Source: a virus
Lineage: Duplodnaviria; Heunggongvirae; Uroviricota; Caudoviricetes
Length of the DNA: 26,096 nt
Reading direction: 5' to 3' (one strand)
Virus record (IMG/VR): IMGVR_UViG_2778261392_000003
Shown piece after piece: positions 1-11,788 of this stretch. The position numbers were made by a program, and so were the translations under genes. How positions within the stretch are numbered: the first letter of the stretch is position 1; every line of letters starts with the position of its first letter. The notes under the pieces were generated by a model that had not been told where the DNA came from, made no database searches, and saw only the letters and a program-made list of their open reading frames with translations.

Positions 1-1032
1 TCAAAAACTTGCTATTGATGTTGGTAGTGTTGCCAGCGGATTAAACCGTAATGCAGTTTCCAGGTGATCCGGTGCCAGATGTGCGTAACGCATAGTCATT
101 TTTATATCGTGATGCCCGAGAATTTTTTGTAAGGCCAGGATATTTCCACCCGACATCATGAAGTGCGCCGCAAACGTATGGCGCAGAACGTGTGTCAGTT
201 GACCGCGAGGGAGCACGATAGACGTTTTTTCCATCACGGATAAAAATTGAAAATAGCAGTCTGTGAAGAAATTGAACCCATCAAGCGCCATGATCTCTTC
301 GTAAAGCTCTTTACTGATAGGGATGCTTCTGTTTTTCTTCCCCTTCGTTCTTACAAAGGTAATTCGGTATTTGGTCACCTGTGAGCGGGTAAGATTTACG
401 GCTTCACGCCAGCGTGCGCCTGTGCTTAAGCATATCTTAACTACCAGTGCCAGAATTGGGTCCTGACGTTTGCAATCAGCCAGCAATTCAACAATCTGCT
501 CATGGGTAAGCCATGCCATCTCTTTTTCTGCGATGGTGAATTTTCGCATGTTCTCCAGTGGGTTCGGATACGACCATTCGCCCAGACGGGATAGTTCGCT
601 AAAAACACTACTTAGATAGCTTTGCTCCAGGTTAATGGTGACCGGGCTTGCTCCTTTCTTCCATTTCTCGCTGAAGTAGATCTCGCCTGTCAGGCGTTTA
701 TCTCGATAGTGGGCAAACATTTTAGAGGTGAGATCGGTTGCAAGAGGATTGCCCAGAGCGTCAACCATCAACAGCAATTTGTCATAAACATGCTGCCCAG
801 CTGTCAGAGATTTACCATGTAGTTTGAACCATAGCTCAACCACGTCTTTCAGTGTTCGACGATCCACGGATTCACCCAGCCAGGGCTTTGCTTCGGTTTC
901 TTCCATCGTGTGACGCTCAAAAGCCAGTGCTTCGCCTTTGGTGGCGAATTGTTTACGTACACGACGCCCACTACGTCCGGCGGGGTAACATTCGCAAAGC
1001 CATTTTCCTGTGGTGAGTTTTCGTACTGCCAT
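1..1032 (-). CDS. int: Tyrosine integrase, P2/186 family (complete; stop codon at window positions 1-3)
   Basis: 343 aa ORF; C-terminal catalytic region with HVLRHTFAAH...RYAHL typical of tyrosine recombinases; located at prophage end next to the repressor operon as in P2/186. Confidence 0.9.
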   Translation of the reverse strand: MAVRKLTTGKWLCECYPAGRSGRRVRKQFATKGEALAFERHTMEETEAKPWLGESVDRRTLKDVVELWFKLHGKSLTAGQHVYDKLLLMVDALGNPLATDLTSKMFAHYRDKRLTGEIYFSEKWKKGASPVTINLEQSYLSSVFSELSRLGEWSYPNPLENMRKFTIAEKEMAWLTHEQIVELLADCKRQDPILALVVKICLSTGARWREAVNLTRSQVTKYRITFVRTKGKKNRSIPISKELYEEIMALDGFNFFTDCYFQFLSVMEKTSIVLPRGQLTHVLRHTFAAHFMMSGGNILALQKILGHHDIKMTMRYAHLAPDHLETALRFNPLATLPTSIASF

Positions 1033-1112
1033 AAAAAATGCCCTCCAGTGGAGAACATTTTTACTGTATGTATAACCAGTGTCAATGTATGAAATCAGTC
1101 AATAATACATCT

Positions 1113-2444
1113 TTAGTTCAACATTAAAGCTTCAATGGTGGACGAAACAAGTGTTCGGGGAGGCACTGCGTCTAAGCCGTTTTGAAAGAAATCATAGGTA
1201 GCACGTTCAGTCCATTTTCTTCTGGTTTCATCATCTTTTATAAAGAATGGAGATGTTGTATCAATATAGTCCAGTACGATCCCATAAATAGCACATTCAG
1301 TATTATCTATCCTATAAATATCTTCATCGTAACTTAAATATTCAAAGCCTAAGGTTTTGATAATGCTTTCTGCATCCACAGAATTATCTAGATAACTTAA
1401 TGCCAAAGGGCGATTTAAAGAGTATAATATTACCCCTAACATTCGATATAATGAATAACCAAATACTTTCCCTGGACCAATTCCAGATTGAGATAGCACC
1501 TGATATATTTCAAAGTGGCGTGATAATGTTTCTACTTCACGTAAAGACAACTTAGCCCTTTGTATTATCGTTTTTATGATATGCCCGCATGATTCGTCTA
1601 CTTCTTGCAGTTTTTGAGAATCATTTTTTAATATTCCCCATAAAGCAACAGATGCGTATGCAGGTGTATAGTTATCTGGTTTATATGTATCTGGCAATAC
1701 AAATGTAAACTTAATGAATTTGTCTAAATACTGATCTGCATTTATGGATAAACCATACAGATGCCTTATTGATGCCTTGAGTTGTTGAGTCTTTGCAACC
1801 AATACAAAATTTAAATTTTTTATTTCAAAAATGTGTTTGATATTTTCTATGATTGAAAGAGCGAATGTAGGTTTACATCTGTCCAGTTCGTCTATAAAAA
1901 TCGTTATTTTATATTCCTCCGTAAGATGCGATATTGTACTTCTCAGTGTCTCGATGTTTTTCTGCGCCTCTATATGATCGTCTAATAATGTTTCAATTGT
2001 ACTGTCAATTGCACTCGAAGTTGCTTCTTTGATAGCATCTTCGAAGCCATCAACAATGTCATCTGCATTTTGTTTTAACACCCATCCAGTGCCTGCTTTG
2101 AAAATGGTTTTCAAACCAAAACGTATTGCTGGAAGTGTTTTATTTATTAACTCCTTTCGTTCATTTTTGGGAAGAAGTGCAGCAACACCAGCCATTAACG
2201 TCAAAATTGGGGCATCATTATGATCTTCAGCGAAAGCATCAATGTAAACTACTTTATGTTTTTGATTATTGCTTTCAATTAGATTTGCAACTTTTTTGCA
2301 AAACTCTGTTTTCCCCGTGCCCCATCCGCCATCTATAACCAGTGGAGATAAGTTAATATCAGAGTCAAGTAGCGATATTAATTTTTCAGCAATAGGCTTA
2401 CGAAGGAACTCGTCACGATAATCAAACGTATATTCAATAGGCAT
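1113..2444 (-). CDS. KAP-family P-loop NTPase (accessory cargo, candidate defence protein)
   Basis: 443 aa; Walker A GGWGTGKT near N-terminus; Walker B with KAP-typical hhhhDELDRC (IFIDELDRC); ATG at 2444 preceded by GGAG RBS; AT-rich by eye compared with phage core; only 31 bp downstream of the repressor stop, same strand. Confidence 0.7.
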   Translation of the reverse strand: MPIEYTFDYRDEFLRKPIAEKLISLLDSDINLSPLVIDGGWGTGKTEFCKKVANLIESNNQKHKVVYIDAFAEDHNDAPILTLMAGVAALLPKNERKELINKTLPAIRFGLKTIFKAGTGWVLKQNADDIVDGFEDAIKEATSSAIDSTIETLLDDHIEAQKNIETLRSTISHLTEEYKITIFIDELDRCKPTFALSIIENIKHIFEIKNLNFVLVAKTQQLKASIRHLYGLSINADQYLDKFIKFTFVLPDTYKPDNYTPAYASVALWGILKNDSQKLQEVDESCGHIIKTIIQRAKLSLREVETLSRHFEIYQVLSQSGIGPGKVFGYSLYRMLGVILYSLNRPLALSYLDNSVDAESIIKTLGFEYLSYDEDIYRIDNTECAIYGIVLDYIDTTSPFFIKDDETRRKWTERATYDFFQNGLDAVPPRTLVSSTIEALMLN

Positions 2445-2475
2445 TTAGAACTCCAGTTATTTAATATATTGTGTG

Positions 2476-3051
2476 TTAAAATTTTTCTGCTCTTCTTAGT
2501 ATGCAACACCACACAATTCCAACAATCTGTATTTCGTCTCTAGAACACTCAAAACCACGATTTCCTCCTTCAACATATAATCTGTTATTAGGTAAGCGGG
2601 TCAGGGTTCGGACCGAAATTTTTTCGTCGATACCTATTAGCCACAATCCATCGCTTATATCATCATATTCAAAACTACATATATATTCGTTATCCAGATC
2701 TTCAATGATGAATGGGTTACATATTTTTTCAGGTAAGAATGTTTTATCAAAAACATATGCCCCATCTTCAATTAGTGTTCCAGAAATTAATTTTTTCTTT
2801 GGTACTAAAATTTGCGCATTTGTATTTGAAATATTTTTATCACCTATACCGAATGACAACCATTCTAGTGAATAACCAGTTTCGATAGCACATTGCAAAA
2901 CCCAATCTGCAGGGAAGATGTCTCGCATGTAACGTGTAGCCATAGTGCTCTTGGATACTCCCAAGTGATCGCAAAGAGCCTGTCTAGTAGAGAACCCATA
3001 CGCCTCAACTAGACGTTCAATGACTTTCTTACCACCGCTGCTGAAATCCAT
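2476..3051 (-). CDS. cI: Phage immunity repressor, 186 CI-like (N-terminal HTH plus C-terminal domain)
   Basis: 191 aa, same size class as phage 186 CI; N-terminal HTH-like segment (TRQALCDHLGVSKSTMATRYMR); ATG at 3051 with GGAGGA RBS; divergent from the early lytic operon. Confidence 0.7.
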   Translation of the reverse strand: MDFSSGGKKVIERLVEAYGFSTRQALCDHLGVSKSTMATRYMRDIFPADWVLQCAIETGYSLEWLSFGIGDKNISNTNAQILVPKKKLISGTLIEDGAYVFDKTFLPEKICNPFIIEDLDNEYICSFEYDDISDGLWLIGIDEKISVRTLTRLPNNRLYVEGGNRGFECSRDEIQIVGIVWCCILRRAEKF

Positions 3052-3077
3052 AAGTCCTCCAAAGAAATCTAAAACCG

Positions 3078-3106
3078 TTGACAGATTCCAAAAGCGATCT
3101 TAAAGT
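3078..3106 (+). promoter_or_regulatory. Candidate early lytic promoter (pR-like): -35 TTGACA (3078-3083), 17-bp spacer, -10 TAAAGT (3101-3106)
   Basis: Sigma70-like hexamers read directly in the cI/apl intergenic region, oriented toward the early operon. Not experimentally defined; operators not resolved. Confidence 0.3.
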
Positions 3107-5013: not shown

Positions 5014-5867
5014 GCACCATCCTGAAATGGGCGGGAAATAAAACCGCCATTATGTCCGAACTGAAAAAACACCTTCCTGCTGGCCCGCGACTGGTTGAAC
5101 CTTTCGCGGGTTCCTGTGCTGTGATGATGGCGACGGATTACCCCAGCTATCTGGTTGCTGATATTAATCCTGATTTAATCAACCTCTATAAAAAGATTGC
5201 CGCTGATTGTGAATCGTTTATATCTCGTGCCAGAGCTTTATTTGAGGAAGCAAACAGGGAGGTGGCTTATTACAACATAAGGCAGGAGTTTAACTGCTCA
5301 ACTGAAATTACTGACTTCATGAAAGCAGTATATTTCCTGTATCTCAATCGTCACGGTTACCGTGGGTTATGTCGCTATAACAAGAGCGGGCATTTCAACA
5401 TTCCCTACGGTAATTATAAAAATCCGTATTTCCCTGAAAAAGAAATTCGCGTATTTGCAGAGAAAGCCCAGCGAGCAACGTTTATCTGCGCCAGCTTTGA
5501 TGAAACGCTGGCGATGCTGCAGTTGGGGGATGTGGTGTATTGCGATCCGCCTTATGACGGTACGTTTTCCGGCTATCACACTGACGGCTTCACTGAAGAT
5601 GACCAGTATCACCTGGCATCTGTTCTTGAATATCGATCATCAGAAGGTCATCCAGTCATTGTTTCTAACAGTGACACATCCCTGATCCGTTCGCTGTATC
5701 GAAATTTCACTCACCACTACATCAAGGCAAAACGCAGCATCGGCGTGTCGGCTGGCGAGAGTAAATCTGCAACAGAAATCATTGCTGTTTCCGGGGCGCG
5801 CTGCTGGGTGGGATTTGATCCTTCGTGTGGCGTGGATAGTTCTGCTGTGTACGAGGTGCGTGTATGA
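5010..5867 (+). CDS. dam: DNA N6-adenine methyltransferase, Dam family (likely GATC-specific)
   Basis: Motif I-like EPFAGSCAV near N-terminus and catalytic DPPY (CDPPYDG); ATG 5010 with GGAGG RBS; ATGA overlap with A gene start. Confidence 0.85.
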
Positions 5868-8278
5868 GTCATGACGATATGAGCAACTCTAGCGGCTTTA
5901 ACGAGGCCGCTGCAGCATTTTCATGGAACGGCCCGAAAAAGGCCATTAACCCTTATCTGGACCCGGCGGAAGTTGCGCCGGAGTCTGCACTTTCAAACCT
6001 GATCACTCTGTACGCTGCCGATAATGAGCAGGAACAGCTGCGCCGCGATGCACTGAGTGAGCAGGTCTGGGAGCGTTATTTCTTTAATGAATCTCGTGAT
6101 CCTGTCCAGCGCGAAATGGAGCAGGATAAGCTCATTAGCCGGGCAAAGCTGGCGCATGAACAGCAGCGTTTTAACCCGGACATGGTCATTCTGGCGGACG
6201 TCAGCGCCCAGCCCACCCATATTAGCAAGCCGCTGATGCAACGTATCGAATACTTCAGCAGCCTGGGCAGGCCAAAGGCTTATTCCCGCTATTTGCGTGA
6301 GACGATTAAGCCATGTCTGGAGCGACTGGATTGTGTACGTGACAGTCAGCTGTCTGCTTCTTTCCGTTTTATGGCAAGCCATCAAGGGCTGGAGGGCCTG
6401 CTGATCCTGCCTGAAATGAGTCAGGATCAGGTGAAACGCCTGTCCACCCTGGTAGCTGCGCATATGAGCATGTGCCTTGATGCAGCTTGTGGCGATTTGT
6501 ATGCCACTGATGACGTTAAGCCAGAAGAAATCCGCAAGACATGGGAAAAGGTGGCGGCGGAAACCCTGCGTCTGGATGTCATCCCACCTGCGTTTGAGCA
6601 ACTCCGTCGGAAAAGAAACCGCCGTAAACCCGTGCCCTATGAACTCATTCCGGGTTCGCTGGCGCGTATGTTGTGCGCCGACTGGTGGTATCGGAAATTA
6701 TGGAAAATGCGTTGCGAATGGCGGGAAGAGCAGTTGCGTGCTGTCTGCCTGGTCAGCAAAAAAGCATCTCCCTATGTCAGCTATGAAGCCGTGATGCATA
6801 AACGTGAGCAGCGCCGTAAGTCGCTGGAGTTTTTCCGTTCTCATGAACTGGTGAACGAAGACGGCGAAACGCTGGACATGGAGGATGTGGTAAACGCCAG
6901 CAGCAGCAACCCTGCGCATCGCCGCAATGAGATGATGGCCTGTGTTAAAGGTCTGGAGCTTATCGCGGAAATGCGCGGTGACTGCGCCGTTTTCTACACT
7001 ATCACCTGTCCGTCACGTTTCCATTCCACGCTCAACAACGGCAGACCCAACCCGACCTGGACAAATGCGACGGTAAGACAAAGCAGCGATTATCTGGTCG
7101 GCATGTTTGCTGCATTTCGTAAGGCAATGCACAAAACCGGGTTGCGCTGGTATGGCGTGCGGGTGGCTGAGCCGCACCATGACGGTACTGTGCACTGGCA
7201 TCTCATGTGCTTCATGCGTAAAAAAGACCGCCGCGCCATCACTGCATTACTGCGTAAGTTTGCCATCCGTGTAGACCGCGAGGAGCTGGGCAACAACACG
7301 GGGCCACGCTTTAAGTCTGAGCTGATTAACCCGCGCAAAGGAACACCGACAAGCTACATCGCGAAATACATCAGTAAGAACATTGACGGGCGTGGTCTGG
7401 CTGGCGAGATCAGCAAGGAAACGGGTAAATCCCTGCGTGATAACGCCGAATACGTTAATGCCTGGGCGTCTCTGCATCGTGTTCAGCAGTTCCGCTTCTT
7501 TGGTATTCCGGGACGTCAGGCTTACCGTGAACTTCGCTTGCTGGCAGGTCAGGCGGCAAGGCAACAGGGTGACAAAAAAGCAGGTGCGCCAATACTGGAT
7601 GACCCGCGCCTTGACGCCATCCTGGCTGCTGCTGATGCTGGTTGTTTTGCCACCTACATCATGAAGCAGGGCGGCGTACTGGTTCCCCGTAAATATCACC
7701 TTATCAGAACCGCTTATGAAATCAACGAAGAGCCGACCGCCTATGGCGATCACGGCATTCGTATTTATGGCATCTGGTCACCCATTGCAGAGGGCAAGTT
7801 CTGCACTCACGCAGTGAAGTGGAAAATGGTTCGTAAGGCCGTTGACGTTCAGGAGGCGGTAGCCGACCAGGGCGCTTGCGCCCCTTGGACTCGTGGCAAT
7901 AACTGTCCCCTTGCTGAAAATTTAAACCAACAAGGGAAAGACAAATCAGCTGATGGGGACTCCAGAACGGATATTACCCGTATGAATGACAAGGAGTTGC
8001 ACGATTACCTGCACAGTATGAGCAAAAAAGAGCGCCGGGAACTGGCTGCAAGGTTACGCCAGGTGAAACCGAAACGGCGTAAAGACTACAAACAGCGAAT
8101 TACAGACCATCAGCGACAGCAGCTCGTCTATGAACTGAAGTCCAGGGGATTTGATGGCAGCGAGAAAGAAGTCGATTTGCTCCTTCGCGGCGGCAGTATT
8201 CCGTCAGGAGCAGGCCTGCGTATCTTCTATCGGAACCAGCGTCTGAAGGAAGATGATAAGTGGCGGAACCTGTATTAA
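5864..8278 (+). CDS. A: Replication initiation endonuclease (P2 gpA-like rolling-circle initiator)
   Basis: 804 aa; HWHLMCF metal-binding type motif; size and position as P2 gene A at end of early operon. Confidence 0.85.
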
Positions 8279-8371
8279 TTACGCGGGTTAACAATTCGTG
8301 CTCTTAATAATACCAGGCATATCAGGCCGATGAACGTAAAAAAACGTTTTACATCAGTAAGATTATTATAT

Positions 8372-8387
8372 ACTGTAAATATAAACA
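8372..8387 (+). promoter_or_regulatory. LexA box (SOS operator) CTGTAAATATAAACAG
   Basis: Perfect CTGT-N8-ACAG with AT-rich spacer, about 45 bp upstream of the ATG at 8431 and overlapping AT-rich -10-like hexamers. Confidence 0.55.
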
Positions 8388-8430
8388 GTGGTTATATATA
8401 CAGTATTGTTGTGGTGTCATAGGAGGAAAG

Positions 8431-8619
8431 ATGCAGGACTATTTTTTGGAGTCTTTGAAGCTCCAGCGCATTGATTTTTTTCTTAAGCTTGTAGCGGCTA
8501 GTGAGTGTAGTGATGAAGAGAAGGGGCTGGCTCTGCAGTGGGTTTCTGAATTGACTGATGAACTCATGGCAAAAATCAGAAGCCACGAATACAACCGCTC
8601 AATGGATGTCATCAGCTGA
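8431..8619 (+). CDS. Small protein of SOS-controlled module (possible Tum-like antirepressor component), function unknown
   Basis: 62 aa; ATG 8431 with AGGAGGA RBS; immediately downstream of LexA box; followed 10 nt later by DinI-like gene. Confidence 0.5.
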   Translation: MQDYFLESLKLQRIDFFLKLVAASECSDEEKGLALQWVSELTDELMAKIRSHEYNRSMDVIS

Positions 8620-8629
8620 GGTGACTTTT

Positions 8630-8863
8630 ATGCGCATTGAAATAATGATCGATAAAGAGCAGAAGATTAGCCAGTCTACCCTGGACGCCCTTGAATCCGA
8701 GCTTTACCGCAATCTGCGCCCCCTGTATCCCAAAACGGTAATTCGCATTCGCAAAGGTAGCTCTAACGGTGTGGAACTAACCGGACTGCAACTGGATGAA
8801 GAAAGAAAACAAGTGATGAAAATTATGCAGAAGGTGTGGGAGGACGACAGCTGGCTGCATTAA
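8630..8863 (+). CDS. DinI-family protein
   Basis: 77 aa beginning MRIEIMIDK and ending WEDDSWLH, matching hallmark ends of E. coli DinI (MRIEV...WESADDWF); GAGGTG RBS 6 nt upstream of ATG 8630. Confidence 0.75.
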   Translation: MRIEIMIDKEQKISQSTLDALESELYRNLRPLYPKTVIRIRKGSSNGVELTGLQLDEERKQVMKIMQKVWEDDSWLH

Positions 8864-8871
8864 GAAACGTT

Positions 8872-8901
8872 GCCCCCAGGAGGATTCATTCTGATGGGGG
8901 C
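8872..8901 (+). terminator. Possible hairpin terminator after DinI-like gene (GCCCCCA...TGGGGGC)
   Basis: 7-bp GC-rich inverted repeat with 16-nt loop; weak T-tract, so weak call. Confidence 0.25.
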
Positions 8902-9061
8902 TAGTTTGGGCAATGAGTGAAATAAGGCGTAAGGTGGGCGGTTATTTTGATAAGTGATCGTCCGCTTTGTGTCAGAAGCAGAAGCAGAAGTGGGAGTGTC
9001 TGAGACTCTCTAAAAGTTGATGATTCACTTACAAAACCATTTTCCTGATGGATGCTTACAC

Positions 9062-9397
9062 TTACGAATGATCATTCTGTTTAGTCTTCATGAGAAAATC
9101 CCGAATCTTTGCCAAGTTTGAATTTTCGGGGATTGAATCCATGTACGGATCACGCTCAAACACTAATTGCTCAGATTCAACGAAAGCCTGCCACTCTACT
9201 GGGTCTAGCTCAAATCCCATTGCTGTCATATCACTTTCATCTTCCCCCTCGATCCAGTGGACTAAATAAAACAACTCATCATCAGGAGAATCATCCTCAC
9301 CATCAACAATATCAACATCGGTTACAGTGATACGTAGGGTGGGATCGATTTTTGAGACATAAATTCCTAACTGTGGTATAGGGGGAATATTGTTCAT
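9062..9397 (-). CDS. Highly acidic small protein (111 aa), function unknown; candidate DNA-mimic/anti-defence or regulator
   Basis: ATG at 9397 with perfect AAGGAG RBS; Asp/Glu-rich throughout (e.g. DVDIVDGEDDSPDDE, EGEDESDM); divergent from the ATPase/HNH operon. Confidence 0.6.
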   Translation of the reverse strand: MNNIPPIPQLGIYVSKIDPTLRITVTDVDIVDGEDDSPDDELFYLVHWIEGEDESDMTAMGFELDPVEWQAFVESEQLVFERDPYMDSIPENSNLAKIRDFLMKTKQNDHS

Positions 9398-9885
9398 GGA
9401 AACTCCTTTTATTGGTGTTTGCTATTTGAATAAAAATACGCCAAACAGAGTGTTAACTGTGAATCTGGAAAGAATCGTTGTAAGTACCCCGCTTAGGTGT
9501 CCCATTCTATTTTAGAGGTTCTCGTGCATATGGATTATGTTATCTGAAAGCTAACTTCCGCTTCCCGTTCACAGCGAACATTCATCTTTGTAAACCCGTA
9601 TGATCCGTTTTTCAAGTGGCCATTCAGATACGGATTTTCACTTCCTTGACAGTGCATGACTATGCTGCATGAAATCGCATGATCGATTGAGGATCGTCTT
9701 TGCTCAGATCCGCCAGAACTGGCGGGCTTTTGCTCATGTCATGCATGTGCATGAAAACCACTGCATAAAGCGGGCAGGCGTGGCGGGGATACGAGCGCGC
9801 GGCAGTGGATATGTTCACAAAACGGATGAAATCTAACATGTAATGTCATATTATCTAAAAGCTGTTAAGTATGACGGGAGGAATA

Positions 9886-11124
9886 ATGCGACATTTCATC
9901 GAAACTATCTTCTTTAAAAGGAACGATGAGCCTTACACATTAAATCTTGATGGTAAGAATCTAATAATATCAGGAGATAATGGCTCTGGTAAAACTAGGT
10001 TGATCGAGAATATTTATGAGTTTATAGAAAAATCGATTAATTCACATGATCCTTATACTAAGGAGCAGCTACAAAAGGAATTGAATTCCAGTCAAGAAAA
10101 CTTAAAGTATTCAAATAGAGGGGATGGTAATTATAGCTATTTAAACGAAGAAATTGAGAGACTGAAAGAAAAATTAAAAGAATTTGAGAGCTTTGATATT
10201 ACTTTTAATGATGTGGTTGATTTCAGGGTTGCTGCAAAAAAGAAAAAATCAATTATAAGATTATTTCCTGCTATTCGAGAAGCGAAAATAAAAAATGATG
10301 GTAAGATTAGCAGCCTCGATTTGTTGTTAACTGAGTATGGGAACGCACAGAGAAATAATTCTAAGATTGATGCTGGTATGTATTTTGAAAGATACATAGT
10401 TACATTGTGGAATTATGCTTTAGTCAGTAAGGGAGTGGGCAAGGATGATGACTATAAAAGAGCCTTTGATATTATTGAGAGTATTAATGATGACTTAAAA
10501 GAACTTTTTGAAGATGAAAGTATTAGAATGGATTTTGATCTCGACAAGTTGAAAATCTATCTTTTACAAAATAATAAGGAACCATTTGGACTTGATAAGT
10601 TGTCATCTGGTTTTTCATCAATTCTTTCTATTTATACTGATTTATTGATAAAAGCAGAGCTTGATAAAATCAGAAAACATGATATGACAGGGATAGTACT
10701 TATTGATGAAATTGATGCTCATCTTCATGTAACATTGCAAAAGAAAGTATTTAGTTTTTTTTCATCATCTTTTCCGCAAATACAATTTATTGTTTCTACG
10801 CATTCACCTTTCGTAATCCAATCAGTATCTGATGCGATTATATTTAATCTCTCAACATTGGATCAGATGGGTGATTTATCATTGTATTCTTACACAGCAA
10901 TTATAAAGGGATTGTTGGGTGAGGATGTATCTTCGGATAAGCTAAATGCATTAGTTAAAGAATTAATGACTTTAGTAGAAAATAATGTCTTCGACGATAG
11001 ATTTCATTCTATAATGAAAACGTTACAGAAGAGTATTGATTTTCTTGATAAAAGTTCAAAAGCAGCTTTTATGATCGCTAAGAGTAAATATTTAGATTAT
11101 AGCGAAAGGGAAGACGATGTTTAA
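9886..11124 (+). CDS. ptuA: ABC/AAA15-type ATPase, Septu PtuA-like
   Basis: Walker A GDNGSGKT, ABC signature-like LSSGF, Walker B IVLIDEIDAHLH, H-loop STHSPF; coiled-coil-like insert; start taken at ATG 9886 (GGAGG upstream), alternative ATG 9871; AT-rich by eye. Confidence 0.65.
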   Translation: MRHFIETIFFKRNDEPYTLNLDGKNLIISGDNGSGKTRLIENIYEFIEKSINSHDPYTKEQLQKELNSSQENLKYSNRGDGNYSYLNEEIERLKEKLKEFESFDITFNDVVDFRVAAKKKKSIIRLFPAIREAKIKNDGKISSLDLLLTEYGNAQRNNSKIDAGMYFERYIVTLWNYALVSKGVGKDDDYKRAFDIIESINDDLKELFEDESIRMDFDLDKLKIYLLQNNKEPFGLDKLSSGFSSILSIYTDLLIKAELDKIRKHDMTGIVLIDEIDAHLHVTLQKKVFSFFSSSFPQIQFIVSTHSPFVIQSVSDAIIFNLSTLDQMGDLSLYSYTAIIKGLLGEDVSSDKLNALVKELMTLVENNVFDDRFHSIMKTLQKSIDFLDKSSKAAFMIAKSKYLDYSEREDDV

Positions 11125-11788
11125 TGTTACTAGAAACATTCCTGCACCTCAATGCTTGTCGAGAAAAGTATATAACCATAAAACAGTTGTAAATGCTTTA
11201 GACGAAATATTTCATGGAAAATGTTATCTCTGTGAGCAAGGTAATCTTATGGATCCAGAGATAGAACATTTTATTCCACATCGTGATCTTGATGAGCTCA
11301 AATATGATTGGAACAATCTATTTTTAGCTTGCAGTCGATGCAATAGTATTAAAAGTGATTCTTTTGAAAACTTACTTGATTGCACAAAGAGTGATGTTGA
11401 TGTTTTCAGTGAGATTGTTCATCTCGCAGGGAACGCTATAACGAGTGGTGTTCAAGTATACCCAAGAAGAAAAAGACCAAGTAGAAAGGTTTTAAATACA
11501 GTCAAATTATTAGATAAGTGTTTTAACTCTTCGAGTACGGGGTTGAGGGGCATTACAAGAGCAAATCTCTCAGAGAAGTTACAAGATGAATTGTTTTACT
11601 TTACTGGTTGGAGAATGAAACTTGTCAGTGATCGAAGCACAGAACAAGAAATCCAAGAGGCCAAGAATAAGCTAAAGCCAATGTGTAATGTATCATATCC
11701 ATTTTCTGTTTTTTGGCGTTGGCATTTATTAACTGATATTCGAGTAATGAAAAAATTCCCAAGAATCAGAGATGAGCTTGGTTTTTAA
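11117..11788 (+). CDS. ptuB: HNH endonuclease, Septu PtuB-like
   Basis: 223 aa; CxxC (CYLCEQ), HFIPH, and NLFLACSRCNSIK form a classic HNH zinc-finger nuclease motif; 8-nt overlap with upstream ATPase gene (translational coupling). Confidence 0.65.
   Translation: MFNVTRNIPAPQCLSRKVYNHKTVVNALDEIFHGKCYLCEQGNLMDPEIEHFIPHRDLDELKYDWNNLFLACSRCNSIKSDSFENLLDCTKSDVDVFSEIVHLAGNAITSGVQVYPRRKRPSRKVLNTVKLLDKCFNSSSTGLRGITRANLSEKLQDELFYFTGWRMKLVSDRSTEQEIQEAKNKLKPMCNVSYPFSVFWRWHLLTDIRVMKKFPRIRDELGF

What the first reader, a model, noticed from the sequence alone, without database searches (positions are those of the whole stretch)
8340..8863. SOS-controlled module: perfect LexA box upstream of a small ORF and a DinI-family gene
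CTGTAAATATAAACAG (8372-8387) is a consensus CTGT-N8-ACAG LexA operator. It sits in front of a 62-aa ORF and a DinI-like protein (MRIEI...WEDDSWLH). In 186-type phages an SOS-induced antirepressor operon at this position couples prophage induction to DNA damage. The DinI homolog could also modulate host RecA. Whether the 62-aa protein is the antirepressor is open.
Basis: partly seen in the sequence, partly recalled or inferred. Interest (0 to 1): 0.45.

Follow-up and report, generated by a model that had tools for sequence, protein, structure and literature searches.

The report
Split tum SOS antirepressor operon
This is the already described DNA-damage switch of Fels-2/186-type prophages: a LexA-repressed promoter driving a 62-residue antirepressor (TumA) and a DinI-like gene (TumB). 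The identical TumA protein has been shown by deletion in E. coli HS to be required for prophage induction.

Summary
It lies in front of a 62-aa ORF (8431-8619) and a 77-aa DinI-family gene (8630-8863), just downstream of the P2-type replication gene A.

- The 62-aa ORF is homologous to the N-terminal half of the phage 186 Tum antirepressor (hhalign 94.9%, E 4.5e-8).
- The DinI-like gene is homologous to the C-terminal half of Tum (41% identity).
- This is the split tumA/tumB arrangement known from PSP3 and Fels-2.
- E. coli HS prophage DuoHS encodes 100% identical TumA and TumB. A published in-frame deletion of exactly this 62-aa ORF, or a lexA(Ind-) allele, abolishes mitomycin C induction.

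Details I did not find in the papers available here:
- A second LexA box (8386-8405) overlaps the first, as in colicin promoters.
- TumA stays 97-100% identical across prophages whose CI repressors are only 37-54% identical.
- A third strong LexA box sits inside a promoter-like site upstream of int (1062-1081).

Verdict: an ordinary, already known module; low interest.

The parts
8348..8353 (+). -35 hexamer TTTACA of the SOS promoter (counterpart of 186 p95)
   Evidence: It lies 17 nt upstream of TACTGT. It is invariant in 6 Fels-2-type sequences while the spacer diverges. The layout matches the annotated 186 p95 promoter, TTCACA-18 nt-TACTGT. The generic promoter scanner did not report it, because TACTGT matches TATAAT at only 3 of 6 positions.
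8371..8376 (+). -10 hexamer TACTGT, which is also the left arm of LexA box 1
   Evidence: The hexamer and its position match the annotated -10 of 186 p95. It is conserved in all 10 loci examined.
8371..8390 (.). LexA box 1, TACTGTAAATATAAACAGTG (core CTGT-N8-ACAG at 8373-8388)
   Evidence: It scores 23.2 bits; 0 of 200 shuffles reach that score. It is conserved across relatives.
8386..8405 (.). LexA box 2, CAGTGGTTATATATACAGTA; its 16-mer core overlaps the box 1 core by one base, as in colicin promoters
   Evidence: It scores 17.9 bits, within the range of genuine E. coli sites, and 0 of 200 shuffles reach it. It is conserved in Fels-2, SopEPhi, MLG42, Kp phi4.1 and DuoHS (14.9-18.8 bits) and degenerate in SEN8. 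The ColE1-type cea promoter reads CTGTATATAAAACCAGTGGTTATATGTACAG. LexA binding was not tested.
8421..8426 (+). Shine-Dalgarno sequence AGGAGG of tumA
   Evidence: Read directly from the sequence. It is invariant in the alignment.
8431..8619 (+). tumA: 62-aa antirepressor, homolog of the N-terminal domain of 186 Tum and of PSP3 TumA
   Evidence: It matches phrog_698 at E 5.9e-38. The N-terminal 70 aa of 186 Tum hits the same three PHROGs. hhalign gives 94.9% probability, E 4.5e-8, aligning residues 3-44 with residues 3-44. dN/dS is 0.06-0.12. The protein is 100% identical to E. coli HS ECHS_RS04495, whose in-frame deletion blocks induction. The predicted fold is a helical hairpin with pLDDT 88.
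8618..8623 (+). Shine-Dalgarno sequence GAGGTG of tumB, overlapping the tumA stop codon
   Evidence: Read directly from the sequence.
8630..8863 (+). tumB: 77-aa DinI-family protein, homolog of the C-terminal half of 186 Tum and of its truncated product
   Evidence: It matches PF06183 at E 6.6e-23, is 41% identical to 186 Tum residues 71-145, matches 1GHH DinI at E 2.7e-6 and has dN/dS 0.03-0.10. It is 100% identical to the Fels-2 and DuoHS proteins.
8872..8901 (+). GC-rich hairpin after the tumB stop codon; a possible weak or partial terminator
   Evidence: It folds at -20.4 kcal/mol, z -2.6, and is followed by a poor T tract. It lies beyond the point where homology to Fels-2 ends. Its function is inferred only, by analogy with 186 t95a.
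2476..3051 (-). cI: 186-type immunity repressor, the presumed target of TumA
   Evidence: It carries PF07022 and PF16452 and has no S24 peptidase domain, so it is not expected to be cleaved through RecA and would need an antirepressor. That it is the target is inferred from 186 (annotation note) and from the literature.

Best explanation
This is the SOS operon of a Fels-2-type prophage, a split form of the phage 186 tum gene.

In the lysogen, LexA sits on two overlapping operators. Together they cover the -10 hexamer and the first ~20 transcribed bases of a sigma-70 promoter, and they keep the operon silent.

DNA damage activates RecA and LexA cleaves itself. The promoter then fires and two small proteins are made. 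TumA (62 aa, helical hairpin) is the antirepressor. It binds the 186-type CI repressor, which has no autocleavage domain, and stops it holding the lytic promoter. The prophage then switches to lytic growth. TumB is a DinI-like protein and most likely tunes RecA filament activity, and so the strength or timing of the SOS signal. It is accessory rather than essential for the switch.

What is shown here: the sequence features, their conservation, the homologies, and purifying selection on both genes.

What is shown in the literature for the identical TumA protein: the LexA-cleavage dependence and tumA dependence of induction.

What is inferred: direct TumA-CI binding in this prophage, LexA occupancy of both boxes, and the role of TumB.
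For: Position and promoter layout match the annotated p95/LexA/tum operon of 186.

The LexA boxes score 23.2 and 17.9 bits against a shuffle maximum of 15.7. They are footprint-conserved in diverged relatives.

TumA is homologous to the Tum N-terminal domain. TumB is homologous to the Tum C-terminal domain and to DinI.

PSP3 is annotated with tumA ('UV induction of prophage') and tumB. Lemire et al. [quoted passage not shown]

In E. coli HS, delta-tum and lexA(Ind-) both abolish mitomycin C induction of DuoHS. The deletion primers match window 8411-8433 and 8617-8639 exactly. ECHS_RS04495 is the 62-aa ORF located upstream of the DinI-like gene. DuoHS TumA and TumB are 100% identical to those in the window.

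CI is of the 186 type and lacks a peptidase domain.

Some Peduoviridae (ESSI2_ev040, ESSI-2, YenM_06.16-2) carry a LexA-boxed tumA with no dinI-like gene beside it, so the N-terminal module works alone.

dN/dS is 0.03-0.12 for both genes.
Against: No binding or expression experiment exists for this particular prophage. Its CI is only 54% identical to DuoHS CI and 39% identical to Fels-2 CI, so TumA action on this CI is extrapolated.

Within the Fels-2 group TumA does not co-vary with CI. For a specific antirepressor-repressor pair this is unexpected, and it leaves room for a different or additional target.

In 186 the antirepressor is the full fused protein, so a contribution of TumB to the antirepressor function cannot be excluded.

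The generic promoter scan reports no promoter here.

The LexA matrix was built from sites I recalled from memory.
Confidence: 0.88

Rival explanations
1. TumA and TumB act only together, as a two-chain version of the fused 186 Tum. On this view the 62-aa protein alone is not the antirepressor.
For: In 186 the two halves form one polypeptide, and the annotation assigns the antirepressor role to the full-length protein. The two genes are adjacent and only 10 nt apart, and the tumB ribosome site overlaps the tumA stop codon. The DuoHS deletion shows that tumA is necessary, not that it is sufficient.
Against: A personal communication cited by Lemire et al. assigns the antirepressor activity in PSP3 to the upstream gene alone. 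Three Peduoviridae lineages have a LexA-controlled tumA and no dinI-like gene. Deleting the dinI homologues of Gifsy prophages had no significant effect on induction. 186 also makes the free DinI-like part from an internal GTG start, annotated as a modulator.
Confidence: 0.1
2. TumA triggers induction through a target other than CI, or through a CI-independent step. Candidates are another pro-lysogenic regulator or LexA/RecA itself.
For: TumA is 97-100% identical in prophages whose CI proteins are only 37-54% identical and whose cI-apl switch regions do not align. No direct TumA-CI interaction has been reported for the Fels-2 type in the papers I could read.
Against: The homologous domain of 186 Tum inhibits CI DNA binding (annotation note; Shearwin et al. 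1998 as cited). Outside the Fels-2 group, TumA type follows CI type rather than the backbone. 186 and PSP3 share 87% identical gene A but only 28% TumA and 35% CI. The closest TumA to that of 186 (YenM, 38%) goes with the closest CI (41%), although gene A is only 36% identical. The CI N-terminal domains of the Fels-2 group stay 62-83% identical while the C-terminal domains drop to 23%. That leaves a conserved surface that TumA could recognise. In DuoHS the SOS reporter still fires in delta-tum cells, so TumA acts downstream of LexA.
Confidence: 0.08
3. The module is a decayed tum gene broken by a stop codon, and the prophage is no longer SOS-inducible.
For: Relative to 186, a stop codon separates the two halves.
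Against: Both halves are under strong purifying selection at near-saturated synonymous divergence. Each has its own start codon and ribosome site. The arrangement is conserved across Escherichia, Salmonella, Klebsiella and Yersinia phages. The module occurs in 1125 of 5426 complete E. coli genomes. The identical module is functional in E. coli HS.
Confidence: 0.02

Closest known systems
DuoHS prophage of E. coli HS (tum = ECHS_RS04495, DinI-like = ECHS_RS04500; Nat Microbiol 2025, PMC12055606)
   Same: TumA and TumB are 100% identical, gene A 96% and CII 99%. LexA box 1 is identical and box 2 differs by one base. The same LexA box lies upstream of int. Induction there requires tum and a cleavable LexA.
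   Different: CI is only 54% identical. The cargo downstream of tumB and between cI and int differs.
Fels-2 of Salmonella Typhimurium LT2 (STM2728 + STM2726.1) and PSP3 tumA/tumB
   Same: The tum gene is split and sits behind gene A under a LexA box. The DNA is 97% identical to Fels-2 over 8279-8861. TumA is 97% and TumB 100% identical to the Fels-2 proteins. The split is described in Bunny et al. 2002 and Lemire et al. 2011, and PSP3 carries the gene names tumA and tumB.
   Different: Fels-2 and 186 have an orf97-type gene after tumB; here a Septu system follows. Fels-2 CI is 39% identical to the window's. PSP3 TumA is very diverged (22% identity; hhalign E 0.004) and PSP3 has a single LexA box.
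Phage 186 SOS operon (p95, LexA site, tum, orf97)
   Same: Genome position, promoter layout with TACTGT as both -10 and operator arm, the two protein modules, a CI of the same family without autocleavage, and the antirepressor logic.
   Different: 186 Tum is one 146-aa fusion protein that also has internal starts. It has one LexA box and an orf97 gene. TumA-domain identity is only about 19% and is detectable only with profiles.
Dual overlapping SOS boxes of colicin and klebicin promoters (e.g. ColE1 cea)
   Same: Two LexA 16-mers share one base, and the distal half of box 2 is GTGG instead of CTGT. Fels-2 box 2 and its flank match ColE1 over 22 nt. Such paired boxes are reported to bind two LexA dimers and give very tight repression (PMC2994835).
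   Different: In ColE1 the boxes lie downstream of the -10 hexamer. Here box 1 overlaps the -10. No LexA binding data exist for this promoter.
Gifsy-type LexA-controlled antirepressor operons (dinI homologue, gfoA/gftA, irsA)
   Same: A LexA-repressed operon that pairs a small antirepressor with a DinI homologue and acts on a non-cleavable repressor.
   Different: The gene order is reversed (dinI first), the antirepressor and repressor families are unrelated, and the phages are lambdoid.

Membership tests
186/Fels-2-type tum SOS operon of Peduoviridae | Located immediately downstream of the P2-type replication gene A and transcribed in the same direction | tested here: met
   Gene A is at 5864-8278 (PF05840, E 4.8e-127) and the operon at 8348-8863. 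The order is the same in 186, PSP3, Fels-2 and DuoHS.
186/Fels-2-type tum SOS operon of Peduoviridae | LexA operator overlapping the promoter -10 hexamer | tested here: met
   Box 1 scores 23.2 bits at 8371-8390, and TACTGT serves as the -10 as in the annotated 186 p95. This is met at the sequence level only.
186/Fels-2-type tum SOS operon of Peduoviridae | LexA actually binds, and the promoter is induced by DNA damage | not testable with these tools
   Published for the DuoHS module, whose box 1 is identical, through the lexA(Ind-) phenotype. Not measured for this window.
186/Fels-2-type tum SOS operon of Peduoviridae | Encodes a protein homologous to the Tum N-terminal (antirepressor) domain | tested here: met
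   The two proteins share PHROG hits. hhalign gives 94.9% probability, E 4.5e-8. Pairwise BLASTP finds nothing.
186/Fels-2-type tum SOS operon of Peduoviridae | Antirepressor activity: binds CI and prevents operator binding | not testable with these tools
   Genetic requirement has been shown for the identical protein in DuoHS. Biochemistry is known only for 186 Tum (note).
186/Fels-2-type tum SOS operon of Peduoviridae | Partner immunity repressor of the 186 CI family without a RecA-dependent autocleavage domain | tested here: met
   The cI gene at 2476-3051 carries PF07022 and PF16452 and has no S24 peptidase hit.
Phage 186 Tum proper (single fused polypeptide) | The antirepressor and DinI-like halves lie in one reading frame | tested here: not met
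   A TGA at 8617-8619 ends tumA, and tumB starts at 8630 in another frame. This is the PSP3/Fels-2 split form.
Phage 186 SOS operon | orf97-type gene downstream in the same operon | tested here: not met
   Homology to Fels-2 ends at about 8861-8873. Downstream lie a 111-aa ORF on the minus strand and Septu ptuA/ptuB.
DinI family (PF06183) | Full-length match to the DinI domain, including the C-terminal acidic W-containing helix | tested here: met
   PF06183 at E 6.6e-23 covers profile positions 1-63 of 63. The protein aligns to 1GHH over residues 1-75, including ...VWEDDSW.
DinI family (PF06183) | Binds RecA filaments and modulates SOS functions | not testable with these tools
   Inferred from family membership. 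The 186 annotation calls the equivalent truncated Tum a modulator of SOS induction.
Colicin-type dual overlapping SOS boxes | Two LexA 16-mers overlapping by one base, both with scores in the range of real sites | tested here: met
   The cores are at 8373-8388 and 8388-8403; the 20-mers score 23.2 and 17.9 bits. The layout matches ColE1-type and klebicin plasmids.
Colicin-type dual overlapping SOS boxes | Two LexA dimers bound together, giving tighter repression | not testable with these tools
   Known for colicin operators (PMC2994835). Not measured here.

The most novel reading that the evidence does not exclude
TumA of Fels-2-type prophages may be a generalist antirepressor. On this reading it recognises a conserved surface of the CI N-terminal domain and so inactivates many heteroimmune CI alleles (37-54% identical overall). 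Co-resident Fels-2-type prophages of different immunity would then all be induced by one SOS trigger. A colicin-style double LexA operator would set a high damage threshold, and a separate LexA-gated int promoter would couple excision to the same signal.
Probability: 0.35. Interest if true: 0.45.

Novelty: already known. Interest (0 to 1): 0.15.

Why it matters
The module explains how this prophage senses DNA damage even though its repressor cannot be cleaved. It occurs in about a fifth of complete E. coli genomes (1125 of 5426). It therefore governs induction, and so the spread of cargo such as the Septu and KAP-NTPase defence genes seen here, under antibiotics that trigger the SOS response. 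None of this is new: the architecture was described for 186, PSP3 and Fels-2, and the identical tumA gene has been deleted in E. coli HS. The modest added value is threefold: the recognition of the double operator, the invariance of TumA against a highly diversified CI, and the LexA box at int. All three are cheap to test.

Tried and rejected
- **Pairwise BLASTP** of the 62-aa ORF against 186 Tum found nothing. Homology appeared only with PHROG profiles and hhalign.
- **The generic promoter scan** found no promoter in 8200-9500. I kept the promoter call because the annotated 186 p95 has the same weak -10 (TACTGT) and because the -35 hexamer is conserved.
- **The only terminator-like hit of the scan**, a hairpin at 8608-8625 across the tumA stop codon and tumB ribosome site, is not more stable than shuffles (z -1.3). 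I dropped it as a regulatory element.
- **A co-variation test** expected to show TumA tracking CI gave the opposite result within the Fels-2 group. Tracking is seen only between the more distant groups.
- **The structure search** of the TumA model returned only generic helical hairpins (best E 0.83). PDB has no sequence relative.
- **Pfam and PADLOC** gave nothing meaningful for TumA: Pfam only a single sub-threshold chance hit (PF21636, E 0.095, 13.1 bits against a 27.3-bit cut-off) and PADLOC no hit.
- **Rfam and tRNA scans** of the window were empty.
- **Bunny, Liu and Roth 2002**, the primary paper on Fels-2 and lexA, is not held in the library. I could not check whether it already describes the second LexA box.
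- **The antisense ORFs** at 8392-8586 and 8439-8612 were not pursued: they lie entirely inside the conserved tumA frame.
- **The 101-aa ORF** from 8558 was rejected in favour of the ATG at 8630, which has a ribosome site and matches all annotated homologs.

Full report
**What is there.** The region was read directly. The bare pattern CTGT-N8-ACAG is expected 0.45 times per shuffled window, so it is not evidence by itself.

I built a 20-position weight matrix from 30 E. coli LexA sites, recalled from memory of Fernandez de Henestrosa et al. 2000, and made it symmetric. On this matrix the site TACTGTAAATATAAACAGTG (8371-8390) scores 23.2 bits. Genuine sites score 12.3-26.0 bits (median 19.9). 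None of 200 dinucleotide shuffles of the window exceeds 15.7 bits.

The same scan found a second site, CAGTGGTTATATATACAGTA (8386-8405), at 17.9 bits. Its 16-mer core overlaps the box 1 core by one base. It also found a third site far away, at 1062-1081, scoring 23.5 bits.

Downstream of the boxes lie two ORFs:
- a 62-aa ORF (8431-8619), with AGGAGG at 8421-8426;
- a 77-aa ORF (8630-8863), with GAGGTG overlapping the upstream stop codon.

The 77-aa protein is a full-length DinI domain. It matches PF06183 at E 6.6e-23 and E. coli DinI (1GHH) at E 2.7e-6.

**Context.** The window is a P2/186-like prophage. In order it carries:
- integrase (1-1032, minus strand);
- a KAP-NTPase cargo gene;
- a 186-type CI repressor (2476-3051, minus strand; PF07022 and PF16452, no S24 peptidase domain);
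- a Cox/Apl-like gene, cII and a methylase;
- replication gene A (5864-8278);
- the module, followed by cargo, and then portal, terminase and the late genes.

These assignments rest. The stretch 8279-8861 is 97% identical to Salmonella phage Fels-2 and to many Klebsiella and Escherichia Peduoviridae. It is found in 1125 of 5426 complete E. coli genomes.

**Identity of the two genes.** Phage 186 is annotated at the same position with promoter p95, a LexA site whose left arm TACTGT is the -10 hexamer, and the tum gene (146 aa, 'expression repressed by LexA; inhibits CI DNA binding'). An internal GTG start in tum gives a 76-aa 'truncated Tum' that 'modulates SOS induction'.

The window's DinI-like protein is 41% identical to Tum residues 71-145. 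The 62-aa protein gives no BLASTP alignment to Tum, but two profile methods link them:
- It and the first 70 residues of Tum hit the same three PHROG families. The window ORF scores 5.9e-38 for phrog_698, 1.1e-8 for phrog_8554 and 0.002 for phrog_1993. Tum(1-70) scores 5.9e-6, 3.4e-12 and 1.5e-23 for the same three.
- A profile of 28 diverse homologs aligns residues 3-44 to Tum residues 3-44 with 94.9% probability, E 4.5e-8.

PSP3 is annotated with tumA ('similar to 5' end 186 tum; UV induction of prophage') and tumB ('similar to dinI and 3' end of 186 tum'). The module is therefore the split tumA/tumB form of the 186 tum gene.

Both genes are under strong purifying selection, with dN/dS of 0.03-0.12 at synonymous divergence of 0.5-1.6. 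They are not the halves of a dead gene.

AlphaFold predicts TumA as a two-helix hairpin (helices 2-23 and 28-61, pLDDT 88). No solved structure is informative.

**Literature.** Lemire et al. 2011 (PMC3121763) state that Tum resembles an antirepressor fused to DinI. [quoted passage not shown] Christie).

The Phollow paper (Nat Microbiol 2025, PMC12055606) shows that in E. coli HS an in-frame delta-tum mutant and a lexA(Ind-) mutant both fail to induce the P2-like prophage DuoHS after mitomycin C. The SOS reporter still fires in the delta-tum mutant.

Several checks show that 'tum' in that paper is the 62-aa ORF:
- The deletion primers fuse ...GTGGTGTCATAGGAGGAAAGATG to TGAGGTGACTTTTATGCGCATTG.
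- Both halves match the window exactly, at 8411-8433 and 8617-8639.
- The locus they name, ECHS_RS04495, is the 189-nt ORF in front of a 'DinI-like family protein'.

DuoHS TumA and TumB are 100% identical to the window's proteins, gene A is 96% identical, and LexA box 1 is identical.

**Promoter and operator.** I aligned six Fels-2-type promoters from Escherichia, Salmonella, Yersinia and Klebsiella phages. The -35 hexamer TTTACA, box 1 and the ribosome site are invariant or nearly so, and box 2 is nearly so (the G of its CTG half is changed in SEN8). The 17-nt spacer and the leader have diverged.

Every tumA-type gene in ten diverged Peduoviridae loci has a LexA box of 21-28 bits lying 38-68 nt upstream of its start. 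The second, overlapping box is present in Fels-2, SopEPhi, MLG42, Kp phi4.1 and DuoHS (14.9-18.8 bits). It is degenerate in SEN8 and absent from 186, PSP3, ESSI2_ev040, ESSI-2 and YenM_06.16-2.

The same layout is typical of colicin promoters. A 45-nt query hit 1139 plasmids. A 6647-bp ColE1-type plasmid reads CTGTATATAAAACCAGTGGTTATATGTACAG in front of an ORF beginning METAVAYYKDG, which from memory I take to be colicin E1. A Klebsiella klebicin plasmid has the same arrangement. Paired colicin boxes are reported to bind two LexA dimers and to give very tight repression (PMC2994835).

By inference, two LexA dimers here would cover the -10 hexamer through about +22. I found no mention of this second box in the papers I could read, and the primary Fels-2 paper is not held.

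**TumA and CI.** I expected the antirepressor to co-vary with its repressor. Between distant groups it does:
- 186 and PSP3 share 87% identical gene A and 81% identical CII, but only 28% TumA and 35% CI.
- The closest TumA to that of 186 (YenM, 38%) accompanies the closest CI (41%), although gene A is only 36% identical.

Within the Fels-2 group it does not. TumA is 97-100% identical among the window, Fels-2, DuoHS, RE2010, Cartapus and many Klebsiella phages. Their CI proteins are only 37-54% identical to the window's CI. No phage record in the collection has a CI above 80% identity to the window's.

The CI N-terminal DNA-binding domains stay 62-83% identical in this group, while the C-terminal domains fall to 23%. 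The cI-apl switch regions do not align.

The simplest reading, an inference, is that TumA recognises a conserved surface of the CI N-terminal domain and works across immunity types. The alternative, that it has another target, is kept as a rival explanation.

**TumB.** Three lineages carry a LexA-boxed tumA with no dinI-like gene. Deletions of the dinI homologues in Gifsy prophages had no significant effect on induction. 186 also expresses the DinI-like part separately, annotated as a modulator. TumB is therefore most likely an accessory modulator of RecA/SOS rather than part of the switch. This remains inferred.

**End of the operon.** Homology to Fels-2 stops just after the tumB stop codon. 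A GC-rich hairpin at 8872-8901 (z -2.6, weak T tract) may act as a partial terminator. Where Fels-2 and 186 have an orf97-type gene, this prophage has a 111-aa ORF of unknown function on the minus strand, followed by a Septu system.

**Verdict.** The module is an already known system, with experimental proof for the identical protein. Interest is low. Three details may be new: the double colicin-like operator, a near-invariant TumA paired with diversified CI repressors, and a LexA box in a promoter-like site upstream of int.

Noticed in passing
window 1055-1092 (minus strand); LexA box at 1062-1081: A third strong LexA box, TACTGTATGTATAACCAGTG (23.5 bits), lies exactly between a TTGACA and a TAAAAA/AAAAAT hexamer, 30 nt upstream of the int start codon. 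It looks like a LexA-repressed int promoter. The box is identical in E. coli HS DuoHS. It is conserved in Klebsiella phage 4LV2017 and vB_EcoM-813R9, where cargo genes separate int from cI, and absent from RE2010, where cI abuts int. The 76-nt stretch occurs in 641 of 5426 E. coli genomes. I did not find it described in the papers I read.
   Followed up: partly
window 9871-11788 (+): A Septu defence system sits directly downstream of the tum operon, in the place of the orf97-type gene of Fels-2 and 186. PtuA is at 9871-11124 (PADLOC PDLC00268, E 7e-122) and PtuB, an HNH nuclease, at 11117-11788 (PDLC00331, E 2e-82). This is the known variable cargo spot of P2-like phages.
   Followed up: partly
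window 1113-2444 (-): A 443-aa KAP-family P-loop NTPase is inserted between int and cI. It matches PF07693 at E 4e-50 and the PADLOC candidate system PDC-S20 at E 2.6e-173. It is a second cargo or defence locus.
   Followed up: partly
window 9062-9397 (-): A 111-aa, very acidic ORF of unknown function (phrog_17127, E 2e-70) lies between tumB and the Septu genes on the opposite strand. It has no Pfam or PADLOC hit.
   Followed up: no
window 2476-3051 (-): The CI repressor of this prophage has no close relative among 50,697 phage records: one record falls in the 60-80% identity band and all others are below 60%. The rest of the early region is 85-99% identical to known Fels-2-type phages. It is probably a distinct immunity type.
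   Followed up: partly
L017 (Fels-2) box 2 versus L011 (ColE1-type plasmid) 420-441: The second LexA box of Fels-2 and its flank (CAGTGGTTATATGTACAGTATT) are identical over 22 nt to the proximal SOS box of the colicin E1 promoter. Whether this reflects convergence on a cooperative LexA site or exchange of an operator between a plasmid and a phage is unknown.
   Followed up: partly
L023 (PSP3) 2219-3079: PSP3 CI (286 aa) carries two tandem copies of the N-terminal helix-turn-helix domain, unlike the roughly 190-210-aa CI of the other phages. Its TumA is also the most diverged in the set.
   Followed up: no
L021 (ESSI2_ev040), L006 (ESSI-2), L022 (YenM_06.16-2): These Peduoviridae have a LexA-boxed tumA homolog but no dinI-like gene next to it. 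The annotated ESSI2_ev040 CI start is probably too far downstream, because the reading frame continues upstream through a conserved helix-turn-helix.
   Followed up: partly
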